This document shows positions 1 to 39,494 of a DNA stretch of 51,940 nt, piece by piece; within the stretch, counting starts at the first letter, position 1, and the number at the start of each line of letters is the position of its first letter. The notes below the pieces were generated by a model. It had not been told where the DNA came from and searched no databases. It saw nothing but the letters and a program-made list of their open reading frames with translations. This DNA is from Escherichia phage MLP1. Made by a program: the position numbers and the translations under genes. The stretch lies in sequence record NC_079176. One strand, given 5' to 3'.

Positions 1-666
1 GCTGCTGCTGCCAGCTTAGCACAGGAAGCCACCATTGATGTGGTAACTGTAGAAGGCTTACAATCTCTGCTTACATCACCGGAAGGTGAAGCTGCTGTGA
101 TGAAGCGTTTCAAACTGATGAAGCTGGCTAAAAGCATTTACAACGTCTTAATTCTCGATAACACTGAGAAGTATGATACCAAGTCAATTGCACTATCTGG
201 TGTGAAGGATTTGATTTGGGAATATTTGAAGATAGTTGCTGCCGCAGTTGGTATTCCGGCTACACGTTTCCTTTCTGCATCTCCAGACGGTATGAATGCT
301 ACGGGCGAATCTGACCTCGTAAACTATATCGACTTGTTGACTGGCTTGCAGACTTCTGTGTTCGACCCTCGTTTAGATGTGGTAGACAAGATTGTCCAAG
401 CGCACTTTGGCATTGAAGAATATGACTATGAATGGTTAGATATCTTCCCTGAATCCAACGTTGAGAAAGCGAAGCGAGCTAAAGATTTGGCGTTCGCTAT
501 TGACCTACTGGTTAACAACGGAACTATTACCACACAAGTTGCAAACGAAGTCATGTTCCATTCGGGCGTGTTCGGAACTTGTGACCTCGGTAAGCCAAAT
601 CCTAAACCTCCTAACATCCAAAAGGGTAACGCAAGTGAAGCAAAGCCAAAACCTGGTTCAGCTTAA
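1..666 (+). CDS. virion protein, C-terminal fragment (possibly portal); 5' end outside window
   Basis: Frame open from base 1 with no start codon in window, stop TAA 664-666; sits directly upstream of scaffold and capsid genes; no diagnostic motif recognised. Confidence 0.4.
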   Translation, partial: AAAASLAQEATIDVVTVEGLQSLLTSPEGEAAVMKRFKLMKLAKSIYNVLILDNTEKYDTKSIALSGVKDLIWEYLKIVAAAVGIPATRFLSASPDGMNATGESDLVNYIDLLTGLQTSVFDPRLDVVDKIVQAHFGIEEYDYEWLDIFPESNVEKAKRAKDLAFAIDLLVNNGTITTQVANEVMFHSGVFGTCDLGKPNPKPPNIQKGNASEAKPKPGSA

Positions 667-748
667 CGACGAAGATACCGTGAATGAAGTAGTTTTGTTA
701 ACCGACAAGGCTACTCTAACGACCCGTCGTTTACGTGACTCTGGCGAA

Positions 749-1699
749 ATGATTGCAGAATGCACCATCGCTCGTACTGGCATTATGCTGTACAAAGCGA
801 AAGAACTTGGTGAGATTGCAAAACATCTGGACCCAGAATCTATTTGCCGTGTTCGCACCAAGCCGGAAGTATTATTTGATGAAGCAACCATTGAAGGTTG
901 TCGCTCAATTCCGGTTACTATCGGCCATCCAAAAGATGACGTTAACACGAAGAACAACAAAGAACTCCAGAAAGGGTTCATCGAAGGTCGTCCAGTTGCA
1001 GACGGTTCTTTCTTGGCTGCATCAATCGTTTTGAATGACGAGCAAGCCATCCGATTAGTTGATTCTGGCGTTGACCAAATCTCCCTGGGCCATAATGCCG
1101 AACTGGCTGTTGCAGAAGATGCTGATGCAGACTTCGACAAAGTTCGTATTATCCCCAACCATGCTGCAATTGTTGTTCGTGGTCGTGCTCAGACTACTCG
1201 CATTGGCGACTCTGGTGAAGAGATTTCCATTGTTGACAAAGCAACCTTTGATGTTGTTGAAGCAGAGCGTGATGCAGCATTGGATAAAGTTTCCACTCTG
1301 GAACAGAAGCTCGCTGATGCAGAAACTGCACGCCTATCCGATGAAGCCATTCAGGCTGAGGTAGACAAGCGTGTTGTTGCTCGTACAGCATTGCTCATTG
1401 ACGTTGCCCGTTTGGGTGATGAATTTTCCAAGCTTGATTTCTCTGGCAAGACTGATGCAGAAGTTAAGTTGGCTGTTGTTAATAAGTTGCATGACAAGGA
1501 CTTCGGTGAGAAGAGTGAAGATTACATCTCCGCTCGTTTCGATGCGGCACTTGAAGATTGTGATTCCATTACTTTGGGCGATGCCCTGAACCAATCTATG
1601 CAATTCACTGCTAAGAAAGATTCAGAAGCTCGTAAGCCTAAAGTTTCTATTTCCGAAGAAGCTAACAAACGTCGTTTAGAACGCTTCAACTCTTTATAA
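749..1699 (+). CDS. putative head scaffolding / prohead-maturation protein
   Basis: Between portal-like and capsid genes; C-terminal half acidic and helical (EAERDAALDKVSTLEQKLADAETARL); start uncertain (ATG 749, alternatives GTG 680 or TTG 695). Confidence 0.4.
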   Translation: MIAECTIARTGIMLYKAKELGEIAKHLDPESICRVRTKPEVLFDEATIEGCRSIPVTIGHPKDDVNTKNNKELQKGFIEGRPVADGSFLAASIVLNDEQAIRLVDSGVDQISLGHNAELAVAEDADADFDKVRIIPNHAAIVVRGRAQTTRIGDSGEEISIVDKATFDVVEAERDAALDKVSTLEQKLADAETARLSDEAIQAEVDKRVVARTALLIDVARLGDEFSKLDFSGKTDAEVKLAVVNKLHDKDFGEKSEDYISARFDAALEDCDSITLGDALNQSMQFTAKKDSEARKPKVSISEEANKRRLERFNSL

Positions 1700-1708
1700 G
1701 GTAAGACA

Positions 1709-2182
1709 ATGCCAAAGCAAGATTGGTCTATTAATACTGGTGCAGCATATGCGGGTGAGCAATATGGCCTGGCTACCACTAACTCTCAGCGACTGACTTT
1801 CAATGCTGAAACTGAAATGGCTAACTTTGGTTTAGCTGTTGTTCAGGGTACTGCTTCTAATCAGGTTAAGCCTGGTATTGGTGTCGACGGCACTGTTCTG
1901 GGCATTACTATGCGCCAGATTAACATCGAATCTGCAACTCGTCCTGGTGACGGTACTGTTGCAATCAAAGCTGGCTGGCCTCTGGGCGTTATGCTGTCTG
2001 GCCCAATCATGGTCAAACTGGTCACTGCAATCACTGATAAGAACATTGGTGTGTCTGCCACTGGTCAATTTGGTGGTGTTGGTGCTGGTTATACTGCCGC
2101 TACCAACCTGACTGCACTTCGCTACCCTGCTGCTGCTGGTGATGTTGTTCCGGTCATGATTAACGTAGTCCCAAAGTCGTAA
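1709..2182 (+). CDS. capsid-associated (decoration-like) protein, zero-frame product
   Basis: 157-aa ORF with AAGGT ribosome-binding site, immediately upstream of major capsid gene; ends at TAA 2180-2182 just after a slippery heptamer. Confidence 0.5.
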   Translation: MPKQDWSINTGAAYAGEQYGLATTNSQRLTFNAETEMANFGLAVVQGTASNQVKPGIGVDGTVLGITMRQINIESATRPGDGTVAIKAGWPLGVMLSGPIMVKLVTAITDKNIGVSATGQFGGVGAGYTAATNLTALRYPAAAGDVVPVMINVVPKS

Positions 2183-2475
2183 CGCCACCTCCAGCACCGA
2201 CCGTTACTGCGGTAGCGGCGGCTGTGACTGCTGATGCTTCAACTACGGATGCTACCGTAACTGTTGATAAACTGTTTACGTTTGCAAACTCTGTTGCTAG
2301 CGACTACAACTTCACTGTTGACCCAGCGGTCGCCGGAGTAACTGTGGCGGCTAATGGTACTATAACTGTTGCAACTGCAACGATTGGTACTGCGACTTCT
2401 GCAACAATCAAAGCAACTCATAAGACTGCTCCTGGTGTAACTGCTACTAAAGCAATCACCATTACGCACCCTTAA
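2170..2475 (+). CDS. Ig-like C-terminal extension reached by -1 frameshift from the 1709 ORF
   Basis: Heptamer C CCA AAG at 2170-2176 in zero frame; -1 frame opens at 2164 right after its own TAA 2161-2163 and encodes a Pro-rich linker (VVTPPPAPTVTA) then a Thr/Val-rich beta-type domain to TAA 2473-2475. Confidence 0.5.
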   Translation, partial: PKVVTPPPAPTVTAVAAAVTADASTTDATVTVDKLFTFANSVASDYNFTVDPAVAGVTVAANGTITVATATIGTATSATIKATHKTAPGVTATKAITITHP

Positions 2476-2519: not shown

Positions 2520-3527
2520 ATGCCAAAGATGATTAAACTGGCCGACGGTTCTGAATTTGAACTGAATGATGCCATCACCCGTATCCAGGACTCTGGCACC
2601 GTTGTTTTGAATGACGACGACGCAGTGTTCTTTCAACGTCAGCTTGAGTTCATTGAAGCTCAAACTTACGACACCCTGTATCCTGAACTGGAAGCTCGTG
2701 CTGCTTTCGGTGTTGATACTACTGGCGGCGCTGGTGTTAACACGCTGACCTACCGTTCATACAACCATGTTGGTAAAGCTCAGGTAATCAACGCCCGTGC
2801 AACCGACCTGCCGAAGTCTAGCATTTCTGGCAAAGAATACAGCGTAACTGTTAAATCAGTTGGTACTGCATTCGATTACGACATTGACGAAGTAGCATCT
2901 GCTGCTGTAACTGGTCTGCCGCTGGAAACTCGTAAAGCAAACGCTGCTATCCGAGGTTACGAGCAGTATGTTAACTCTGCTGCATGGTACGGCGACCAGG
3001 CTAACGGCTTCGTTGGCTTCTTCGAAAACCCAGACATTACCAAAGCAACTGTTGCTCAGGGTGCTGGCGCTTCTACTAAGTGGGTCGAGAAGACTCCGAC
3101 CGAAGTTATTGCCGACCTGACTGCTGCTGTGTCTGCAATGTATGCCTCTACTCTGAAAATCATGCGCCCTGATGAAATCTGGATGCCTGTTGAGCATGAG
3201 CAGTACATCTTCAACACCGCACGTTCTGAACAGTCTGATAAGACGATTGGTCAGTTCTTCATTGCCAACAACCAGTTCATCAACTCCCGTGACAAAATCA
3301 AGGGTCTGAACGCAATCAAAGGTCACGGCGATGCTGGTTCTGATTGCTTCGTAGTTGTTTGCCGCAATGCAATGGGCAACCGTACTTTCCGTCTGCGTGA
3401 GCCCCTGCCGCTGACCTGGCAACCAGTGCAGCTTCATGGCCTGATTTATGAAGTACCTGGCCGTGGTCGTTTCGCTGGCTTCCAAACGATGTATCCGGCA
3501 GCAATCTCTATCAACTCCGGCATCTAA
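2520..3527 (+). CDS. major capsid protein (putative)
   Basis: 335-aa ORF in capsid position after scaffold/decoration genes; host-like high-expression codon choice; followed by a stable hairpin. Confidence 0.65.
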   Translation: MPKMIKLADGSEFELNDAITRIQDSGTVVLNDDDAVFFQRQLEFIEAQTYDTLYPELEARAAFGVDTTGGAGVNTLTYRSYNHVGKAQVINARATDLPKSSISGKEYSVTVKSVGTAFDYDIDEVASAAVTGLPLETRKANAAIRGYEQYVNSAAWYGDQANGFVGFFENPDITKATVAQGAGASTKWVEKTPTEVIADLTAAVSAMYASTLKIMRPDEIWMPVEHEQYIFNTARSEQSDKTIGQFFIANNQFINSRDKIKGLNAIKGHGDAGSDCFVVVCRNAMGNRTFRLREPLPLTWQPVQLHGLIYEVPGRGRFAGFQTMYPAAISINSGI

Positions 3528-5283: not shown

Positions 5284-6732
5284 ATGTCAATCCCAATTTC
5301 TGACTTAGTTCAGGTTGATATCGCAATCTCCCCGAACGCCATTGCGACTGATGGTTTTGGGCCGTTGCTCTTCCTGAGCAAAGAGTTTGTACCAACCGTT
5401 GATGTATATCCGGTTCGCTCGTATACCAGTTTGAAAGAAGTTCTCGCAGACTTCCCTGGTGGTGAGATTGCTAAAGCTGCTACCTCTTGGTACTCGCAGA
5501 AGCCAACTCCGAAGACTTTCCTGGTCGGTGCTATCAAGTATGATACTCTGACTCCAGCAACTCCTGCCACTGTTACTGCTGCAACTGCTGCTGTACTGGC
5601 AACGATTAAGCTGGAAACTGCTGCAACCTTGCAACTAAGTGCTAGCGGTGTTCAGTACGTTACTGACCCGATTGATTTCTCTTCTGCTGCCGACTTCGAC
5701 GAAGTTGCAAATTTGGTAACTACTGCACTGTCTTCTGTTGGCGCTGGTGTGACTGTTACTCAGGAAGCTGGTAAGTTTAAACTGACTACCTCTGCAACTG
5801 GCGCTAACGCAACTATCAGCAACGTTGGTGGTAAAGTTGGTGAAGTGTTGAAGCTGCAATCTTCTGACAGTGCAGTTATTGTTGCTGGTAAGAACGAGCT
5901 ATCTATCTCTTCCGACTTGTCTAATATTGCAGATGCTCCATTCAACTTCTTCTATGTAGGCCTTGACCGCCAGTATCGTGGCAAAACCTCTCCAGTAGAC
6001 AACCAAATGTCTGTGGCGAAGTGGTGTGAAGCATCTAGCAAAGTATTTGGCTGGGGTGATAACGACAAGAACATTCTTATCAACGGCACTGATAACAGCT
6101 TCCGTCGTGCTAAGAACCAGAACCTGCGTAACACTCTGTGTGTTTACGATGCTTCTGCGAATGGTGATGAATATCCGGAAATTTCTATCCTGGGTCGTGC
6201 ATCAACTGTCAACTTTAACGTTGCAAACTCTGTTCTTATTCTGGCATACAAGAAAGGTCCAGGTATCTCCACTGCTGACCTGTCTTCTGGTCAGGTAAGC
6301 GCACTGCTTTCTTGTGGTGGTAACGCATTCATTTCTGTTGCTGGCAACGTAATGTTCTACAACGGTCGTATGGCTGATGGCACATGGTTCGACTCCGTAC
6401 AGGGTGTTGAATGGCTGACTCAGAAAGTTCGACTGAACGTGTTCAACTTGTTCTACACCTCCAATACTAAGATTCCTTGGACGGACACTGGTGTAGCAAT
6501 GGTTAACCAGCAAGTAACCCTGGCGCTTGAACTCGCTAAGACTAACGGCCTCATTGCCCCTGGCTATGATAACGAAGGTGTCTTCTATCCAGAAGGCTAC
6601 AAAGTTATTTCTACTCCGTTAGAACTCTTGCAGTCGCAGAAGGGTGAACGTATTTGGGAAGGTACTTCCTTTATTGCTATCGGTTCCGGTGCAATCCAGG
6701 GTGCTGTAATCTCTGGCAACTTCATTCAGTAA
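5284..6732 (+). CDS. tail sheath protein (putative)
   Basis: 482-aa ORF followed by a 151-aa tube-sized ORF, a chaperone pair with frameshift and a tape-measure-like gene: the canonical contractile-tail order. Confidence 0.55.
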   Translation: MSIPISDLVQVDIAISPNAIATDGFGPLLFLSKEFVPTVDVYPVRSYTSLKEVLADFPGGEIAKAATSWYSQKPTPKTFLVGAIKYDTLTPATPATVTAATAAVLATIKLETAATLQLSASGVQYVTDPIDFSSAADFDEVANLVTTALSSVGAGVTVTQEAGKFKLTTSATGANATISNVGGKVGEVLKLQSSDSAVIVAGKNELSISSDLSNIADAPFNFFYVGLDRQYRGKTSPVDNQMSVAKWCEASSKVFGWGDNDKNILINGTDNSFRRAKNQNLRNTLCVYDASANGDEYPEISILGRASTVNFNVANSVLILAYKKGPGISTADLSSGQVSALLSCGGNAFISVAGNVMFYNGRMADGTWFDSVQGVEWLTQKVRLNVFNLFYTSNTKIPWTDTGVAMVNQQVTLALELAKTNGLIAPGYDNEGVFYPEGYKVISTPLELLQSQKGERIWEGTSFIAIGSGAIQGAVISGNFIQ

Positions 6733-7213: not shown

Positions 7214-7672
7214 ATGGCTTGTGAACTTCGCCAACGCGAGTTGCAAGCCGACTCTGGTGATATAGTCTTGGTTGGTACACGACAACTCGGTGCCAGCCAG
7301 GCTCTTGACCTCCAGGTCGAGCTTGTTCAGAAACTCGGTATTTCGATATTCCCATTCGTTGAGAATAAATACAACTTTGCAGATATTATTCATTTGATGC
7401 AGCAAGGTGGAACTCATACGGAAGTAACAGAATTAATTAAACGTGTAGTGTGCATGGCAACCATTGATGGTGTCGAAGTTAATCCACGCACTATGCAGAT
7501 GAAGTACAACGGCAATCTAATGCTTATGCACCATGTGTTTGCATTTGTTCTTGAATCGAACTTCCTTGATTTTTTCAAGCAAGGGCTCGAACTCAACGAA
7601 CGCAGACAGTTGGAGGCGGTGGAAGCATCCAAAATGGCCGAGCAGAAGAATTCGAGTCCGGAAACGATTTAA
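7214..7672 (+). CDS. tail assembly chaperone (short form)
   Basis: Acidic 152-aa ORF between tube and tape-measure genes; contains slippery site T TTT TTC. Confidence 0.55.
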   Translation: MACELRQRELQADSGDIVLVGTRQLGASQALDLQVELVQKLGISIFPFVENKYNFADIIHLMQQGGTHTEVTELIKRVVCMATIDGVEVNPRTMQMKYNGNLMLMHHVFAFVLESNFLDFFKQGLELNERRQLEAVEASKMAEQKNSSPETI

Positions 7673-7848
7673 CTCAGAAGTTCCCGGAAATAAAATACTT
7701 CCTGCACCGTCCTGTAATAGAGGACAGTTCTCTCTGTTCTCTTAAAGAACTCTCGGACGGAACCTACTCTATTATGGATTTGTTAACTTTCCACGCAATA
7801 CTTGATTTGCGTAATGAACTAAAACCTAAAGAAGAAGACAATGGCTAA
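7570..7848 (+). CDS. tail assembly chaperone -1 frameshift extension (long form)
   Basis: -1 frame has TGA at 7567-7569 then stays open from the heptamer at 7570-7576 to TAA 7846-7848, overlapping the tape-measure start at 7841. Confidence 0.5.
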   Translation, partial: FFQARARTQRTQTVGGGGSIQNGRAEEFESGNDLTQKFPEIKYFLHRPVIEDSSLCSLKELSDGTYSIMDLLTFHAILDLRNELKPKEEDNG

Positions 7849-28194: not shown

Positions 28195-28195
28195 C

Positions 28196-28384
28196 ATGGA
28201 CTTCATCGTCTACTTTAAGTTAAATGGTGTAGAGCAAAGTTTGTACTTCAATTCTTTACTTCGTTTGCAACAGTGGGCGGAGAAGTTTGTTGGTTATGAC
28301 TTTGATTACATCAACGCATGTACACCTGATGAACATGAGGAAATTGTGTTCAGTTCATTAAATCAGATTCTGGAGGCAAAATGA
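28196..28384 (+). CDS. hypothetical early protein
   Basis: 62-aa ORF, tight packing. Confidence 0.4.
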   Translation: MDFIVYFKLNGVEQSLYFNSLLRLQQWAEKFVGYDFDYINACTPDEHEEIVFSSLNQILEAK

Positions 28385-28554
28385 ACGACCAGCAATTCAA
28401 CACATTAATGCAGCAGATTAATCATCAAGAACTGATGAATGCCATCGAAGGCAAGAAGCCCGTCGAACGTAAATATCGTAAAATTGATAATTATATGCCA
28501 ACAATCATTGCATGTGTTGGTGTTGCCCTTGTTCTCTACTTCCTGGTGAAATAA
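28381..28554 (+). CDS. small membrane protein (57 aa, C-terminal transmembrane helix)
   Basis: ATGA overlap with upstream stop; IIACVGVALVLYFLV hydrophobic tail; below the ORF-track length cutoff. Confidence 0.35.
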   Translation: MNDQQFNTLMQQINHQELMNAIEGKKPVERKYRKIDNYMPTIIACVGVALVLYFLVK

Positions 28555-28641
28555 TGGATATCGTAAAGAAATTAGTATTCTGCATTTTAATGTTTCCTCT
28601 GGTGCTGCTCGTTATGGGCAGCTTCATGTACTTTAACTAAT
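28555..28641 (+). CDS. tiny hydrophobic peptide (28 aa)
   Basis: MDIVKKLVFCILMFPLVLLVMGSFMYFN; starts on upstream stop. Confidence 0.25.
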
Positions 28642-28656
28642 ACCTTAGGAGTTATT

Positions 28657-28920
28657 ATGGCTACCAAAACAGGCATGATGATTGTCCCAAGCCGTAATAA
28701 CTCTTTAAGCGGCTTTACACCGTATCGCATCTATCGTGTAATCTCAGGGACTGGCGAAGCGAATCTTTCAGAAGTTGCTTTGAAGCTAGGCAGGATGGTC
28801 CACTCCGACATTTCCTGTAACGTGCTCGACGATGAGGGAAAGATACGATTTGTTACAATGGATTTCTTCCGTGAATTTAAATTAGAATCTGAATTAGGAG
28901 TTTTGTACCATGAAATTTAA
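28657..28920 (+). CDS. hypothetical early protein
   Basis: 87-aa ORF with AGGAG ribosome-binding site. Confidence 0.4.
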   Translation: MATKTGMMIVPSRNNSLSGFTPYRIYRVISGTGEANLSEVALKLGRMVHSDISCNVLDDEGKIRFVTMDFFREFKLESELGVLYHEI

Positions 28921-29137
28921 ATGTGTTGCTTCCACCAAAGACTACGTTCCAGTTGGCCTAATCATCGAGGGTGAAGCTGTTTCACCTTTGGAATTTAAAG
29001 TTACCAAATCTGCTGAGGAGTTCTCTCCAGCATTTCGTAAAGGTGCTGTTGTTCCTATGAATGGTGCATTCTGGACATGGCAGCGTGACCATCGTGCAGA
29101 GTTTGCAGATATTTGTGGACAAGGTGTATTACAATGA
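28910..29137 (+). CDS. hypothetical early protein, paralogue A
   Basis: MKFKCVASTKDYVPVGLIIEGEAV resembles the next gene's N-terminus. Confidence 0.4.
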   Translation: MKFKCVASTKDYVPVGLIIEGEAVSPLEFKVTKSAEEFSPAFRKGAVVPMNGAFWTWQRDHRAEFADICGQGVLQ

Positions 29138-29364
29138 CAAAGTTTAAATGTGTAAAATCGTCTTCTTCATCTGAATACGCTCCGAAAGTTGGAGATGTGA
29201 TTGAAGGAGAACTAATCCACATACAGAGAAAACATGGAATAGACTCTCGAATAGTTATTTCGAATGTTGGAGACCGAATAGCTGTAAATGGAAGACCTTA
29301 TTGGAGCATTGGTGAAAAAGTTCCGCTAAAAGGTAGCATCTGGATTTGGAAAGAAGTCAAATAA
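29134..29364 (+). CDS. hypothetical early protein, paralogue B
   Basis: MTKFKCVKSSSSSEYAPKVGDVIEGELI; ATGA overlap; AAGGTG ribosome-binding site. Confidence 0.4.
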   Translation: MTKFKCVKSSSSSEYAPKVGDVIEGELIHIQRKHGIDSRIVISNVGDRIAVNGRPYWSIGEKVPLKGSIWIWKEVK

Positions 29365-29427
29365 TTTCCTCAACCATTCTTATAATGAGAGTGGTTGCTG
29401 AATATTATTAATTAACTTGGAGCATTT

Positions 29428-29715
29428 ATGAAACAACGTACTCGTTTACAACGTGACCCAGCCACAGGTCGCTTGTTGCCAGCATACTTGAAAGTTGGTG
29501 ACTTAGTTTACACTCGCGACTTTGCTTTTGATATTTGCCCAAGCAAAGTTTATGTAGTTCTTGCCACCAGCCTATCAAAGCCCAAAGTGCTGTTTGGTGC
29601 ACTTGAGCCAATTCAGTTGACCGGAACTCAATTTGTAATTAAAGATGAATCTGGTTGTAACCGTATCTTCAATCTCGAAGGTGGTTTGTCTAAATGGGAG
29701 AAAATTAAGCAATGA
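29428..29715 (+). CDS. hypothetical early protein
   Basis: 95-aa ORF with GGAG ribosome-binding site. Confidence 0.4.
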   Translation: MKQRTRLQRDPATGRLLPAYLKVGDLVYTRDFAFDICPSKVYVVLATSLSKPKVLFGALEPIQLTGTQFVIKDESGCNRIFNLEGGLSKWEKIKQ

Positions 29716-29999
29716 ACAAGAATTCGATTTTACGTTATGTTGGTGAAACCAATCACTACTTCACCAAAGGTAAGAAATACAAAGTCGTCGCTGGTCGTGG
29801 TGACGGTGTTCCCCGCAACAATGGTACACTCGGTGCGTATATTCAATCTCATTTGGGTTTTGTCGTTAATGATGATAACCTCAATTTATCTTATCGTACA
29901 TTCTCCAATTTGTGGGAGCTTGTGAAAGATTCTGGCGAAGTAAGCTGGTATAAGCCTGAATCAAATATGGACCCAATTCCTATTTCAAAGGTGATGTGA
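29712..29999 (+). CDS. hypothetical early protein
   Basis: ATGA overlap. Confidence 0.4.
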   Translation: MNKNSILRYVGETNHYFTKGKKYKVVAGRGDGVPRNNGTLGAYIQSHLGFVVNDDNLNLSYRTFSNLWELVKDSGEVSWYKPESNMDPIPISKVM

Positions 30000-30002
30000 G
30001 GA

Positions 30003-30107
30003 TTGAATATTAAATACCTAATACTGACACTTACTATTAGCGTTGCTATACTTACGATTGTTATAGGCTTTGCCAACCTGCTGCTATTACAAGCAGGAAT
30101 ATAAACT
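30003..30107 (+). CDS. possible tiny membrane peptide (34 aa, TTG start)
   Basis: Hydrophobic LILTLTISVAILTIVIGFANLLLL; non-ATG start, weak support. Confidence 0.2.
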
Positions 30108-30158
30108 GGCGCGTTAAATTAACAAGGAGCATTCATTGAGTGTTCCTGATTAATTCAA

Positions 30159-30175
30159 CATTAGTTGGATGTGAG
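30159..30175 (+). promoter_or_regulatory. 17-bp motif copy CATTAGTTGGATGTGAg
   Basis: 75 bp upstream of the SSB-tail gene. Confidence 0.4.
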
Positions 30176-30249
30176 AGAGACAAAGCTATTCCGTGGTTAG
30201 CAATGTCGCTGAAACTTAAACCGTAAATTAACTTAAGAGAATCTTAATC

Positions 30250-34019: not shown

Positions 34020-34248
34020 TTTAAATATTAACTCGGTCAAGCCAGAAGATATTCTCTTCCACCAGCCACGCGGCCACTACTATCGAATCCTGTTTGCTAC
34101 AAAGATTAAAACTCACTGCGGTCAGTGGGTAGATGGTTTTGCTTACCAGGAAGTTAAGAAGTATGGAAATCATACTTTCTTTGGTGTTGATTCGATAATT
34201 TATTCAAGACCAAAGGAACTGTTTGACTCAGATTGGAAAACACTATAG
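34012..34248 (+). CDS. hypothetical protein
   Basis: 78-aa ORF overlapping upstream stop. Confidence 0.35.
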   Translation: MCDLNINSVKPEDILFHQPRGHYYRILFATKIKTHCGQWVDGFAYQEVKKYGNHTFFGVDSIIYSRPKELFDSDWKTL

Positions 34249-34318
34249 TTCCAGGCGGGTTTCTTCGAAGTGCCAAGCGGGTTTTGTACTCGCATTGGCC
34301 TTCGGCTTTAGTCTGAAA

Positions 34319-34334
34319 CATTAGTGGGATTTGA
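34319..34334 (+). promoter_or_regulatory. diverged 17-bp motif copy (CATTAGTgGGATtTGA)
   Basis: Shares TCTGAAACATTAGT upstream context with the 34463 copy. Confidence 0.3.
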
Positions 34335-34462
34335 TTCTGACCTCTTAGGGAAGAAAGGCATTATACACCTATCGCCAAATGGGTGTCAAGAACTTTCTTC
34401 ATTTATTTTAATTTATTCTTATTATTATTCTTTTTGTTTGGAATATTGGAATAATTCTGAAA

Positions 34463-34479
34463 CATTAGTTGGAATTGAA
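34463..34479 (+). promoter_or_regulatory. 17-bp motif copy CATTAGTTGGAaTTGAA
   Basis: Lies in an 860-bp ORF-poor gap, about 630 nt upstream of the next gene. Confidence 0.35.
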
Positions 34480-35112
34480 GAAACAACATCATGTAAGCAA
34501 ATTGACTTCGTGTAGAAATCTACACTGGATTACAGGTTCGATGCCTGTGGGAAGTTAGTTTGCTTTCAGATGGAATGTTTCCATCAAATACACTTATCTT
34601 TTAACATAGGCCAAAGGGCCAGAATACTTCTTCGCAGAAGCTATCCACTTGTTATAGGTCAATGTATTGGGATGAATTGGTACTGAATAAGCAAGCTGTT
34701 AGGGCTGAATAATTAGAGGGTTATGCCTCATGCTTATGTTAGTCATTCGAAAATAGGTTTGTGCCACAAGCCGCTGGTGCTCCGAGAAAGTCGGACAAAC
34801 AGGGCTTAGAGTGGCATATTCCACACAAAACCGAGCCACCAGCTACGCCAACGCTGGGATTTGGGTGAATGTATTGGGGGAGGATTATAAAGCCTCTGTG
34901 GACTGTATGTGAATCCTAAGCACCAGTTGCCGAAGGGCTACAGGACGCACCCTAACGGGAATAATCCTCCACCAATGCAGTTATCCAGAATTGACACAAA
35001 CGGTAGGCAGCGGCCCGATTTTCGGCCTTCCTGCGCTACTCTGTGGCCTGTTTCATGGCCAAAAGATGAGAAGAGAAGTCACAAACACTGAATCGAAAAT
35101 TGGAGAGTTCCT

Positions 35113-37843: not shown

Positions 37844-37984
37844 ATGGATTTTGATGCACTTGATAACTTAGACTTCGGTGCTGCCGAAGAGGCAATTGAA
37901 GAACTTAAGAAGAAGCAGGACGAAGAAGCAATCGTTCCTGGTGCTGGTGATAACGACTGCTCAAGTGGTGCGTGTGCCATCTAA
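37844..37984 (+). CDS. small acidic peptide (46 aa), hypothetical
   Basis: GGAG 5 nt upstream of ATG; below ORF-track cutoff. Confidence 0.3.
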   Translation: MDFDALDNLDFGAAEEAIEELKKKQDEEAIVPGAGDNDCSSGACAI

Positions 37985-37992
37985 GGTGATTC

Positions 37993-38229
37993 ATGCAACA
38001 GCTTAAGGCAATATTTCTTGGCGTCTTGACTGCATTGGGAATTCTATTTGCAGTGTTCCTCAAAGGCAGAAGCTCAGGCAAAGCCGAGGAGCGTCAGGAA
38101 GCCAAAGAGAAGCAATTCGATTCGTTAAAAGAATCTATCGAGATTAAATCGCATGTTCAGAAAGAAGTGTCTAGCAGTTCTGATAGCAATGTCGATAGTG
38201 AGTTGCTCTCAAAGTGGGTTCGTAAGTGA
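37993..38229 (+). CDS. i-spanin (Rz-like) candidate
   Basis: N-terminal transmembrane segment AIFLGVLTALGILFAVFL then charged helical region; overlapped by a lipoprotein ORF. Confidence 0.5.
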   Translation: MQQLKAIFLGVLTALGILFAVFLKGRSSGKAEERQEAKEKQFDSLKESIEIKSHVQKEVSSSSDSNVDSELLSKWVRK

Positions 38230-38365
38230 TTACTGCTTGATTGCACAACCAATCTATTTGGATGTTGCAGAAGTGAAAGTTTTGTCGCGCGAAACCAAAA
38301 CCCAGATTTTAGTCCACAATGAAACGTGGGCACAAAAGTGTTCTAACTTACCCGACAGTGAGTGA
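38153..38365 (+). CDS. o-spanin (Rz1-like outer-membrane lipoprotein) candidate
   Basis: Signal peptide with lipobox-like IVSC; starts inside the i-spanin gene in another frame. Confidence 0.5.
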   Translation: MFRKKCLAVLIAMSIVSCSQSGFVSDYCLIAQPIYLDVAEVKVLSRETKTQILVHNETWAQKCSNLPDSE

Positions 38366-39215
38366 ACAAATGCTCGCCATCGCATAAACAACATTTGGCA
38401 GTCCGGTACGGGACTTTAAATACACGTATATTATAGTCGAGGGAGTGTGCGACTTTAAATAACGAGACTCTAGCTACTTGTAGCATAGTAGGTGTAATTC
38501 CTGCAATTGCTCTGGGCATAACAATTGAAATTGCTGCCTCCGAGGACGGAAGCCCCGTATTGAATGCGTGAAATTCAGGTAGTCACTTCCTAGAACAGTG
38601 GCCGGGAACAGACCTAGACAAAAGTGCTTGAGAACGTTAGCTCTGTCTTGCCAGCATTAATGGCACGTTGGCCGCGTAAAGGCCACAGCGTCTGACCAAC
38701 GTATCGGCCACCAAATTCAATGGATTCGTAGAGTTAATGAAACCTGCACGATGGGATAGGGATGAAGCATCCGAGGCCGACTGTGTAATTGTGAACGCGG
38801 AGTTCACCGAATCCACCATTTTCCAAACAGTTATGCCTCTGTTCAAAAGGCTCAAGTTAGCGTCTGGCATACCGTAGCGATACGGCTCAGTTGCGCTGAT
38901 TGTGATGTGTCGAAAGAAAGTTCAGGCTTTCATTTGAGCTACTCCTCTTCTCGAAGTTAGCTGGATTCAAAATCCAGACTATGTTCCTATTCACATGAAA
39001 TATGCAAGCCAGGGTTCTTAATATCTGACATAGGTATTAAGCGGGTTTATACTTTTCCCCGATGGTCCCCATAAACAAGGCTGATTCACTTGGGCGGTTC
39101 GAATCAAATTTAATAAGTGTCTTGGCCGCAGTGGAAACACCATTTAAGCCAATATATTGTAATGTTCGTAATAGTCCACGTCAGGGCACTTACTTAAATT
39201 TAACTGGAGAGAAAC

Positions 39216-39437
39216 ATGAAAACTGCTGAAATTGCCGAAGAGATTTACAAGGCCGTAATAGCCAACCAAATTACCAGTGAAGTCCTGCACCTGAATCTTG
39301 AAGAAGTTCGCAATGCCTTTGGTGGTTTTGCAATCTTGTCAATAGAAGCTGCGGAAGCACTAACAAACACGTACAATCAGCGCGAATATGAAAAGCGTTC
39401 TGTACTAAATGCGTCGCTACAGGCGTCATTAAAATAA
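39216..39437 (+). CDS. hypothetical protein
   Basis: GGAGAG ribosome-binding site. Confidence 0.4.
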   Translation: MKTAEIAEEIYKAVIANQITSEVLHLNLEEVRNAFGGFAILSIEAAEALTNTYNQREYEKRSVLNASLQASLK

Positions 39438-39494
39438 TACCATTGTTATGGTGCGGAGCTAATTAATCTCCCACCATATGAACCGGAGAGCAAA

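What the first reader, a model, noticed from the sequence alone, without database searches (positions are those of the whole stretch)
2164..2475. Programmed -1 frameshift adding an Ig-like domain to a capsid protein
The 1709 ORF ends 4 nt after the heptamer C CCA AAG (2170-2176). The -1 frame has a stop at 2161-2163 and is then open through a Pro-rich linker and a 75-aa Thr/Val-rich beta-type domain to 2475. This is the classic way phages attach Ig-like decoration domains to a fraction of capsid subunits. The alternative is an independent GTG-initiated 83-aa ORF at 2224.
Basis: seen in the sequence. Interest (0 to 1): 0.55.

Follow-up and report, generated by a model that had tools for sequence, protein, structure and literature searches.

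The report
Frameshift adds Ig domain to cement protein
In this phiEcoM-GJ1-like E. coli phage, a slippery sequence at the end of the capsid cement-protein gene very probably makes some ribosomes slip back one base and add an antibody-like (Ig) surface domain, a known phage trick that no record or paper I examined reports for this phage family.

Summary
C CCA AAG lies at 2170-2176 in the zero frame of ORF 1709-2182, 3 nt before its TAA. The -1 frame has a stop at 2161-2163 and is then open to 2475.

The 157-aa product is a capsid cement/decoration protein (Pfam PF22758, the E217 gp24 family). The major capsid protein is encoded at 2520-3527.

Comparative evidence from 48 distinct related loci:
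- 26 have an in-frame CCCAAAG/A heptamer plus a -1 ORF of about 100-200 aa that fills the gap before the capsid gene.
- 20 have neither.
- The codon before CCA encodes six different amino acids but always ends in C.
- At least five different Ig-like modules follow the same site, always in the -1 frame.
- No extension has a conserved start codon.
- The Pro-rich linker upstream of GTG-2224 evolves as coding sequence.

AlphaFold (pLDDT 90) gives an Ig-like fold whose first strand lies upstream of GTG-2224. No in-frame cement-Ig fusion was found anywhere.

No conserved stimulatory RNA structure was found for this lineage, so frameshift efficiency is unknown and no protein evidence exists.

Verdict: a new, unannotated member of a known kind. 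Confidence about 0.87; interest about 0.42.

The parts
1709..2182 (+). Capsid cement/decoration protein gene, zero-frame product 157 aa (16.0 kDa)
   Evidence: Pfam PF22758 Phage_cement (E217 gp24/Pam3 gp6), E 1.5e-16, 61.2 bits against a cut-off of 27. PHROG 563 'virion structural protein', 4e-26. It lies between the DUF2213/Pa193_gp24-like gene and the major capsid gene, as in all relatives.
2161..2163 (+). Last stop codon (TAA) in the -1 frame upstream of the slip site; 5' limit of the -1 open frame
   Evidence: There is no ATG/GTG/TTG in the -1 frame between here and 2224.
2170..2176 (+). Slippery heptamer C CCA AAG (X XXY YYZ) in the zero frame
   Evidence: Identical and in frame in 25 further distinct loci (CCCAAAA in L034/L054), while the flanks diverge. 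One of the three most efficient -1 heptamers in E. coli (PMC4066793; PMC5009743).
2180..2182 (+). Zero-frame stop codon TAA, one codon after the heptamer
   Evidence: In all relatives the stop lies 0 or 1 codon after the heptamer.
2176..2199 (+). Pro-rich linker (VVTPPPAP), read in the -1 frame after the slip
   Evidence: In one search, 68% of pairwise differences in the stretch between the zero-frame stop and GTG-2224 fall on -1-frame third positions, and synonymous codon pairs (354) outnumber non-synonymous ones (187). In one search these residues carry no secondary structure in the AF2 model (residues 1-8).
2200..2475 (+). Ig-like (Big_2-type) domain in the -1 frame, with its stop codon at 2473-2475
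   Evidence: AF2 with alignment A3: pLDDT 90, pTM 0.77, nine beta-strands starting at residue 9. Foldseek: the Ig-like domain of T5 pb6 (5ngj, E 3.6e-4), invasin and phi29 gp8; in BFVD, 'Bacterial Ig-like domain protein' and Ig-bearing major capsid and tail proteins. PHROG 13745 'Ig domain containing protein', 1.7e-7.
2224..2226 (+). GTG proposed as an independent start (rejected)
   Evidence: Weak Shine-Dalgarno pairing (-3.1 kcal/mol), and neither the codon nor its position is conserved among relatives. It lies inside the modelled domain, at residue 17, after strand 9-12.
2520..3527 (+). Major capsid protein gene (context; 3' limit of the extension module)
   Evidence: PF09950 Major_capside, 2.4e-47; PHROG 264 'major head protein', 2.3e-84.

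Best explanation
The cement-protein gene (1709-2182) is decoded in two ways. Most ribosomes read ...GTC CCA AAG TCG TAA and release the 157-aa cement protein. By homology this protein forms trimers on the outside of the capsid at three-fold and quasi-three-fold positions.

A minority of ribosomes slip back one nucleotide when tRNA-Pro and tRNA-Lys occupy CCA and AAG, re-pairing with CCC and AAA. They then read GTC GTA ACG CCA... in the -1 frame. The result is a 255-aa protein: the cement domain (residues 1-156), a Pro-rich linker (VVTPPPAP), and a roughly 90-residue Ig-like domain.

Because only the slipped fraction carries the Ig domain, the capsid would display it sub-stoichiometrically on the cement lattice.

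Shown by computation: the sequence anatomy, conservation of the site, coding selection on the linker and domain, absence of an independent start, and the Ig-like fold.

Inferred: that slippage actually occurs and how efficiently; that the long form is built into virions; that the C-terminus points outward; and that the Ig domain acts as a weak adhesin for carbohydrate or other surfaces.
For: 1. Anatomy.
2. The heptamer is in frame in 26 of 48 distinct related loci. All 26 have a -1 ORF of about 96-195 codons that fills a gap of 297-630 nt before the capsid gene. Twenty loci with gaps of 15-72 nt have neither feature.
3. Selection acts on the nucleotides. The codon before CCA is GGC, GTC, GCC, CTC, ATC or TCC: six amino acids, always with third-base C. 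From this phage's own codon usage, the chance of that is about 6e-5 if the six are treated as independent (my arithmetic on the counts).
4. At least five unrelated or distantly related Ig-like modules follow the same site, always in the -1 frame and always open across the heptamer. They are the GJ1 type, PP101/L034 type, Orgeat/L025/L030 type, L032 type and Fifi44/L033 type. Flopper (L024) and L050 carry two tandem Ig copies.
5. None of 23 extension ORFs has an ATG near its N-terminus. The first GTG/TTG lies at codon 10-81 with poor Shine-Dalgarno pairing. Depositors and gene callers chose at least six different starts or annotated nothing.
6. The linker upstream of GTG-2224 evolves as -1-frame coding sequence, yet no start codon exists between the -1 stop at 2161 and 2224.
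7. The first strand of the AF2 model (residues 9-12) lies upstream of GTG-2224.
8. C_CCA_AAG is one of the most shift-prone heptamers in E. coli.
9. Adding Ig-like domains to phage structural proteins by frameshifting is established for T3, A2, A118, A500 and PSA.
10. The same phage has a second classic -1 site in its tail-chaperone gene.
Against: - There is no protein-level evidence. No proteomic or structural paper on this phage group that addresses the product could be found or read.
- No conserved downstream stimulatory structure exists. The window's downstream 84 nt folds no better than shuffles (z = -1.0). The consensus fold is -3 kcal/mol with almost no covariation. In per-lineage folding the window gives z = -0.97.
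- Without a stimulator, heptamers in the E. coli reporter study gave only 2-10 times a background of about 0.05%. The Ig-bearing fraction could therefore be very small.
- Proteus phage Myduc has the -1 extension but a non-canonical G GCA AAG. Tandem slippage therefore cannot be the whole story in every lineage.
- Related sequences share ancestry, so the 26 positive loci are not 26 independent events.
Confidence: 0.87

Rival explanations
1. The Ig-like ORF is an independent small gene started at GTG-2224 (83 aa, 8.2 kDa) or at another non-ATG codon, and makes a free Ig-like protein.
For: GTG-2224 exists, and gene callers and depositors annotate such ORFs (83 aa in PYps16N, 70 aa in ST32, 90 aa in BSBP01/SSEM1/Y2). 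Shine-Dalgarno sequences in this phage are weak in general.
Against: - The start is not conserved. The first GTG/TTG is at codon 57-59 in 4HA13 and phiA050, 81 of 97 in Fifi44, 59 of 96 in L033, 52 in L034 and 33 in PM1. Those starts would delete most of the domain.
- Shine-Dalgarno pairing at GTG-2224 is -3.1 kcal/mol, and 0 to +1.2 at many of the alternatives.
- The linker upstream of GTG-2224 is under coding selection in the -1 frame.
- The first strand of the AF2 domain lies upstream of that codon.
- This reading does not explain the nucleotide-level conservation of the heptamer, or why every module replacement kept the -1 frame open across it.
Confidence: 0.05
2. Termination-reinitiation: ribosomes finish the cement protein at TAA 2180-2182, scan on, and restart at a nearby -1-frame codon, giving a separate Ig protein coupled to cement-protein translation.
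For: The zero-frame stop lies within 0-1 codon of the start of the -1 coding region in all lineages.
Against: In the window no start codon lies within 41 nt of the stop, and in other lineages none within more than 150 nt. Coding selection begins immediately after the heptamer. The heptamer's third-position conservation would serve no purpose under this mechanism.
Confidence: 0.03
3. Untranslated relic: an ancestral in-frame cement-Ig fusion suffered a frameshift mutation, and the downstream frame is decaying, untranslated sequence.
For: No experimental evidence shows that the extension is expressed. L052 shows that the module can be lost.
Against: - The -1 ORF stays open in 27 distinct loci spanning cement-protein identities of 52-99%.
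- 63% of differences in the Ig part fall on third codon positions, and synonymous codon pairs (1938) outnumber non-synonymous ones (1236).
- Modules have been exchanged and duplicated while keeping frame.
- No in-frame fusion exists among 90 close homologues or 50 family representatives drawn from 1.84 billion proteins.
Confidence: 0.03
4. The -1 shift happens mainly by single-tRNA (P-site tRNA-Lys, AAG to AAA) slippage while the A site waits on the adjacent stop or a slowly read codon (a 'shifty stop'), not by tandem slippage. The product would be the same; only the kinetic route would differ.
For: The zero-frame stop follows the heptamer directly in Fifi44, Navette, Orgeat, SSEM1/Y2 and Myduc, and after one codon elsewhere. 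Myduc lacks the XXX half (G GCA AAG TAA) but keeps A AAG plus the stop and the -1 extension. No conserved RNA stimulator was found.
Against: The strict conservation of the third-position C before CCA in 26 loci argues that P-site re-pairing of tRNA-Pro on CCC matters. That is the signature of tandem slippage. In the window a sense codon (TCG) lies between the heptamer and the stop.
Confidence: 0.15

Closest known systems
Phage T3 gene 10 (major capsid 10A/10B) and Lactobacillus phage A2 / Listeria phages A118 and A500: -1 frameshifting that extends a capsid protein C-terminally (an Ig-like extension in T3 and A2)
   Same: A slippery site at the extreme 3' end of a head-protein gene; a minor, longer product; an Ig-like extension in T3 and A2; sub-stoichiometric display on the capsid (PMC5009743; the rationale for sub-stoichiometric display is also stated for K1F gene 10b in PMC13370021).
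   Different: There the carrier is the major capsid protein itself. Here it is an accessory cement/decoration protein (PF22758) that binds the outside of the shell (PMC10329688). No stimulatory structure was identified here.
Ig-like domains on tailed phages (Fraser, Yu, Maxwell and Davidson, J Mol Biol 2006; cited from my own knowledge and listed in the references seen)
   Same: Ig-like domains of the Big_2, I-set and FN3 classes are appended to the C-termini of structural proteins, often through programmed frameshifts, and are exchanged horizontally. Here I-set/Ig_2/Ig_3-like and Big_2-like modules alternate behind one site.
   Different: As far as I could find, the Chaseviridae cement protein was not among the described carriers. 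Here one conserved slip site serves several interchangeable modules within one virus family.
E217 gp24 / Pa193 gp25 / Pam3 gp6 cement proteins (Pfam PF22758)
   Same: The zero-frame product matches this family over its whole length. Gene order is the same: portal, DUF2213/Pa193_gp24-like gene, cement gene, major capsid gene.
   Different: E217 gp24 is 211 residues, is modelled in full (residues 1-211), and no frameshifted extension is described for it. Sequence similarity is too low for a direct PDB sequence hit.
T4 Hoc (capsid decoration protein made of Ig-like domains)
   Same: Ig-like domains displayed on the capsid surface by a non-essential decoration protein. The Orgeat, L025 and Myduc modules match the Ig_2/Ig_3/I-set families.
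   Different: Hoc is a separate, conventionally translated protein that binds hexamer centres. Here the Ig domain is fused to the cement protein, and only through recoding.
E. coli dnaX, IS911 and IS3 -1 frameshift signals
   Same: A heptamer ending in A AAG, decoded by the shift-prone E. coli tRNA-Lys. C CCA AAG is one of the three best heptamers in that system.
   Different: Those signals have defined stimulators: an upstream Shine-Dalgarno-like element and/or a downstream hairpin or pseudoknot 5-8 nt away. None is conserved here. Only some lineages (Fifi44/L033, L030) show a strong hairpin.

Membership tests
Programmed -1 ribosomal frameshift site | X XXY YYZ slippery heptamer in the zero frame of the upstream ORF | tested here: met
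   C CCA AAG at 2170-2176, in phase with ORF 1709-2182.
Programmed -1 ribosomal frameshift site | -1 frame open across the heptamer and carrying sequence under protein-coding selection | tested here: met
   The -1 frame is open from 2164 to 2472. Differences fall on third codon positions in 68% (linker) and 63% (Ig part) of cases, and synonymous changes outnumber non-synonymous ones.
Programmed -1 ribosomal frameshift site | Heptamer conserved across relatives beyond what the amino-acid sequence requires | tested here: met
   Found in 26 distinct loci. The preceding codon encodes six different amino acids, always NNC. CCA is used for Pro in all of them. The heptamer is absent from the 20 loci without an extension.
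Programmed -1 ribosomal frameshift site | Stimulatory element (downstream hairpin/pseudoknot at 5-9 nt, or upstream Shine-Dalgarno-like sequence) | tested here: not met
   Window: MFE z = -1.0, and the first paired base is 16 nt downstream. Consensus fold -3.05 kcal/mol. I saw no Shine-Dalgarno-like sequence within 20 nt upstream. Strong hairpins occur only in other lineages (L008, L033, L030; z -4.2 to -4.6). This feature is common but not obligatory for the class.
Programmed -1 ribosomal frameshift site | Trans-frame protein product observed | not testable with these tools
   No proteomic data were found for this phage group.
Pfam PF22758 Phage_cement (E217 gp24 / Pam3 gp6) | Profile match above the curated gathering score over the full domain | tested here: met
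   61.2 bits against a cut-off of 27; residues 4-152 match profile positions 4-146 of 146.
Pfam PF22758 Phage_cement (E217 gp24 / Pam3 gp6) | Beta-tulip fold forming trimers at three-fold axes on the capsid exterior | not tested
The property is taken from PMC10329688 by homology only. No direct PDB sequence hit.
Ig-like domain (bacterial/phage Big_2-type) | Seven-to-nine-stranded beta-sandwich that superposes on known Ig-like domains | tested here: met
   AF2 pLDDT 90, nine strands. Foldseek: 5ngj T5 pb6 (E 3.6e-4, TM 0.61), invasin 1cwv, phi29 gp8; in BFVD, 'Bacterial Ig-like domain protein' with TM 0.73-0.76.
Ig-like domain (bacterial/phage Big_2-type) | Match to a curated Pfam Ig or Big family above its cut-off | tested here: not met
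   The window's extension has no Pfam Ig/Big hit; its only match is a sub-threshold one to GBD_Hemicentin (E 0.042, 14.2 bits against a cut-off of 27). It does match PHROG 13745 and 33551, 'Ig domain containing protein'. Sister modules reach Ig_2 above its cut-off (L025 type, 28.2 against 27), and Ig_3, I-set and Big_2 below theirs.

The most novel reading that the evidence does not exclude
The conserved C CCA AAG plus adjacent stop at the end of the Chaseviridae cement gene works as a fixed 'recoding socket'. Unrelated Ig-like modules are swapped, duplicated or deleted behind it by recombination. Frameshifting, rather than in-frame fusion, is obligatory, because a fully Ig-loaded trimeric cement lattice cannot assemble. 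The site may work without any RNA stimulator, with the neighbouring stop codon serving that role.
Probability: 0.3. Interest if true: 0.6.

Novelty: new member of a known kind. Interest (0 to 1): 0.42.

Why it matters
- Annotation. Every record I examined for this phage group either leaves the region blank or calls a short 'hypothetical' or 'Ig' ORF with an arbitrary non-ATG start. The correct feature would be a join(1709..2176,2176..2475)-type recoded CDS. The group holds more than 60 phage genomes, and 13 inspected records carry the extension.
- Biology. It extends the frameshift-appended Ig domain from major capsid and tail proteins to a cement/decoration protein. It also gives a clean natural series for asking what the domains bind and why they are kept sub-stoichiometric: the same slip site, at least five interchangeable Ig modules, one duplication, one deletion remnant and no in-frame fusion.
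- Application. Chaseviridae members (Erwinia, Pectobacterium, E. coli and Yersinia phages) are being developed for biocontrol. A natural low-copy display site on the cement protein is a ready-made position for capsid display or for altering how phages are retained on surfaces.

Tried and rejected
- Independent GTG/TTG start: rejected on start-codon scatter, Shine-Dalgarno energies, linker selection and the structure model.
- Stop-codon read-through: rejected. The zero frame past TAA hits another stop after 10 codons and does not encode the domain.
- Transcriptional slippage: rejected from the sequence. The runs are only C3 and A3, whereas known slippage needs much longer homopolymers (established knowledge).
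- Sequencing or assembly error: rejected. The same frame arrangement appears in dozens of independently sequenced genomes and metagenomes.
- Downstream stimulatory structure: searched by single-sequence folding, consensus folding of nine sequences and per-lineage folding with shuffles. Nothing convincing for the window's lineage.
- Natural in-frame cement-Ig fusions: searched with the fused product and with the cement protein against 1.84 billion representatives. None found.
- Direct PDB sequence homologue of the cement protein: none.
- Single-sequence AF2 of the extension: too poor to use (pLDDT 58). Repeated with an alignment.
- Literature on virion proteomics for phiEcoM-GJ1, ST32, PP101 and the PYps phages: nothing relevant. 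The original phiEcoM-GJ1 paper is not held.
- Relatives with longer zero-frame tails (...PAK...QPK): suspected of using alternative slip sites, but they have no extension and no heptamer.
Full report
**1. What the window is**

The 2-kb stretch around the finding is 94.6% identical to Escherichia virus TH24 and Yersinia phage PYps16N, and 88% identical to Escherichia phage phiEcoM-GJ1. These are myoviruses of the family Chaseviridae, subfamily Cleopatravirinae.

Gene order at the left end of the window:
- end of the portal gene;
- a DUF2213/Pa193_gp24-like gene (461-1699);
- the 157-aa ORF (1709-2182);
- a 337-nt stretch with no ORF of 100 aa or more;
- the major capsid protein (2520-3527, PF09950);
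- head-completion genes, tail sheath (5284-6732), tube, chaperone, and a 1231-aa tape-measure-like protein.

**2.

- C CCA AAG is at 2170-2176 in the zero frame (GTC CCA AAG TCG TAA).
- The zero-frame stop is at 2180-2182.
- The -1 frame has TAA at 2161-2163 and is then open to the stop at 2473-2475.
- Slippage would give a 255-aa protein ending ...VMINVVPK-VVTPPPAPTVTAVAAAVTADAS...ITITHP.
- Of 18 in-frame X XXY YYZ heptamers in the window's 48 crude genes, only two are followed by a long -1 ORF: this one, and the tail-chaperone site at 7570.

**3. The upstream protein is the cement protein, not the major capsid protein**

It matches Pfam PF22758 (Phage_cement, E217 gp24/Pam3 gp6) over its full length, at 61.2 bits against a cut-off of 27. 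It also matches PHROG 563.

In phage E217 the homologue is a beta-tulip trimer. It sits at the icosahedral and quasi three-fold axes on the outside of the capsid and links neighbouring capsomers (PMC10329688; similar for Pa193).

**4. The extension is an Ig-like domain**

- It matches PHROG families named 'Ig domain containing protein'.
- A single-sequence AlphaFold model was poor (pLDDT 58).
- With a 13-sequence alignment the model reached pLDDT 90 and pTM 0.77, with nine beta-strands.
- Foldseek places it with the Ig-like domain of T5 tail-tube protein pb6 (5ngj, E 3.6e-4), with invasin and with phi29 gp8. Among viral models it matches 'Bacterial Ig-like domain' proteins and Ig-bearing major capsid and tail proteins.
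- The first strand (residues 9-12 of the extension) lies upstream of the GTG-2224 codon (residue 17). A GTG-initiated product would therefore lack part of the fold.

**5. Comparative test**

I collected the cement-to-capsid interval from:
- 19 GenBank phages;
- 27 IMG/VR contigs;
- 12 metagenome contigs;
- 4 Logan contigs.

After removing duplicates there are 48 distinct loci.

*With the heptamer and the extension: 26 loci.* Each has CCCAAAG (CCCAAAA in L034/L054) in the zero frame, 0-1 codon before the cement stop. Each also has a -1 ORF of 96-195 codons that is open across the heptamer and ends just before the capsid gene.

*With neither: 20 loci.* These are the Nefertitivirinae and several Cleopatravirinae-like contigs, with gaps of 15-72 nt. 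Two of them (L043, L063) were flagged only because the capsid gene itself happens to lie in the -1 frame.

*The two real exceptions are informative.*
- Proteus phage Myduc has the -1 Ig extension behind G GCA AAG TAA, which keeps only the A AAG half.
- L052 keeps the heptamer and the start of the linker (PKAVTPPAPAPTICS*) but has lost the Ig domain. It looks like a deletion remnant.

**6. Selection acts on the nucleotides of the heptamer**

In the alignment the heptamer is the most conserved island, while both flanks vary.

The codon before CCA is GGC (7), GTC (3), GCC (3), CTC (2), ATC (1) or TCC (1). That is six different amino acids, all with C in the third position. In this phage's own structural genes, NNC is a minority choice for five of the six amino acids and never a majority: 11% for Val, 29% Gly, 15% Ala, 20% Ser (TCN), 15% Leu (CTN) and 42% Ile. 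The product of those frequencies is about 6e-5. This is my arithmetic, it treats the six classes as independent, and it is only a rough guide.

**7. The module behind the site is interchangeable**

At least five sequence types follow the same heptamer:
- the GJ1 type (window, GJ1, ST32, 4HA13, Faunus, Navette, SSEM1/Y2, phiA050);
- the PP101/PM1/L034 type;
- the Orgeat/L025/L030 type, which matches Pfam Ig_2 (above its cut-off for L025), Ig_3 and I-set;
- the L032 type;
- the Fifi44/L033 type.

Myduc adds a sixth type behind its variant site.

Phage flopper (L024), L050 and P0082 carry two tandem copies. In every case the module is in the -1 frame. If these were independent genes, neither the frame nor the openness across the heptamer would need to be preserved through such replacements.

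**8. There is no independent start**

- None of 23 distinct extension ORFs has an ATG near the N-terminus.
- The first GTG/TTG is at codon 10-18 in some and at codon 33-81 in others (PM1 33, L034 52, 4HA13 57, phiA050 59, L033 59, Fifi44 81 of 97).
- Shine-Dalgarno pairing is weak or absent.
- Depositors accordingly annotated nothing (GJ1, PP101, Fifi44, Navette, Orgeat, phiA050) or ORFs of 45, 70, 83, 87 or 90 aa. Metagenomic gene callers chose six different starts.
- In the window the -1 frame has no ATG/GTG/TTG between the stop at 2161-2163 and GTG-2224. Yet that stretch evolves as coding sequence in the -1 frame. After excluding the two codons that overlap the zero-frame tail, 463 of 684 pairwise differences (68%) fall on third positions, and there are 354 synonymous against 187 non-synonymous codon pairs. 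The Ig part shows the same pattern (63%; 1938 against 1236).

Only ribosomes arriving from the cement ORF can translate that stretch.

**9. Mechanism and what remains open**

C CCA AAG is one of the three most efficient -1 heptamers in E. coli. It reaches 54% with a strong pseudoknot. In that study, heptamers without a stimulator gave only 2-10 times a background of about 0.05% (PMC4066793; PMC5009743).

I found no conserved stimulator:
- The window's downstream sequence folds no better than shuffles (z = -1.0).
- The consensus fold is weak and lacks covariation.
- Per-lineage folding gives strong hairpins only in the Fifi44/L033 lineage (starting about 6 nt after the heptamer, z about -4.5) and the L030 lineage.

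The zero-frame stop always lies 0-1 codon after the heptamer. That placement may itself favour slippage, and together with Myduc it keeps a single-tRNA 'shifty stop' route open as a variant. The efficiency, and hence the number of Ig domains per capsid, is unknown.

**10. No in-frame fusion exists**

- Ninety close homologues of the fused product all cover only the cement half.
- Apart from two low-complexity hits, the 50 family representatives found in 1.84 billion proteins are 124-187 aa.

In this family, therefore, the Ig domain is attached only through the -1 frame. That fits the idea that full occupancy is not tolerated on a trimeric, interlocked cement lattice. This last step is inference.

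**11. Comparison with what is known, and novelty**

Appending Ig-like domains to phage structural proteins by programmed frameshifting is well established. Examples are T3 and A2 (-1), A118 and A500 (-1), and PSA (+1) (PMC5009743; Fraser et al. 2006, from my own knowledge). The logic of sub-stoichiometric display through the frameshifted product is used in engineering phage K1F (PMC13370021).

What is new here is the carrier (a PF22758 cement protein), the virus family (Chaseviridae), and the clear picture of one conserved slip site serving several swapped modules. I found no paper that reports it. No database record I examined annotates it as a recoded gene. It is a new member of a known kind.

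**12. Verdict**

Confidence in a programmed -1 frameshift that produces a cement-Ig fusion is about 0.87; what is missing is protein-level proof and a measured efficiency. Interest is moderate (0.42). A specialist would not be surprised by the mechanism, but would value the corrected annotation and the natural module-swap series.

Noticed in passing
window 7570-7576 (within ORF 7214-7672; -1 frame open to 7846-7848): A second in-frame slippery heptamer, T TTT TTC, followed by a 92-codon -1 ORF whose stop overlaps the start of the 1231-aa tape-measure-like gene (7841). The position and layout match the classic tail-assembly-chaperone (lambda G/GT-type) -1 frameshift. In phiEcoM-GJ1 the homologues are annotated separately, as 'tail assembly chaperone' gp60 and an overlapping 'hypothetical protein' gp61, not as a recoded gene.
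   Followed up: partly
L024 2062-2649 (phage flopper), L050 2062-2649, protein P0082: In some close relatives the -1 extension holds two tandem copies of the GJ1-type Ig domain (195 codons), which widens the gap between the cement and capsid genes to 630 nt.
   Followed up: partly
L052 2065-2112 (metagenome contig OGVK01000246.1): The heptamer CCCAAAG and the first 13 codons of the Pro-rich linker are kept, but the Ig domain is absent and the capsid gene follows 42 nt after the cement stop. This looks like a deletion remnant and suggests the Ig module is dispensable.
   Followed up: no
L008 (Fifi44) and L033, 7-65 nt after the heptamer; also L030: Strong lineage-specific hairpins begin about 6 nt downstream of the slip site (MFE -27.6, -30.8 and -26.4 kcal/mol; z -4.6, -4.5 and -4.2). 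The inner stems of L008 and L033 differ in sequence. These could be stimulators in those lineages; the window's lineage has none.
   Followed up: partly
L013 1965-1974 (Proteus phage Myduc): This phage has a -1 Ig-like extension (113 codons, overlapping the capsid gene start) behind a non-canonical G GCA AAG TAA. That suggests slippage of tRNA-Lys alone next to the stop codon.
   Followed up: no
protein P0090 (155 aa, 845-nt ENA contig): An ORF with a ThyX-like N-terminal part (PF02511) runs directly into GJ1-type linker and Ig sequence (...TPVPLVTAVSTAVTADASTADATVTVDKLFTFANSAASD). It is either the same Ig module in a different genomic context or a chimeric assembly.
   Followed up: no
window 461-1699: The DUF2213 gene upstream of the cement gene is annotated 'head maturation protease' in RefSeq relatives. 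Its Pfam family (PF09979) is now named after Pa193 gp24, which the Pa193 cryo-EM paper proposes is a scaffolding protein seen under the five-fold vertices. The protease label may be wrong.
   Followed up: no
window 28195-30249, 37981-39494, 34020-35112: These are the largest stretches without any ORF of 100 aa or more in a crude ORF map (2055, 1514 and 1093 nt). They probably hold small early genes or regulatory regions. Not examined.
   Followed up: no
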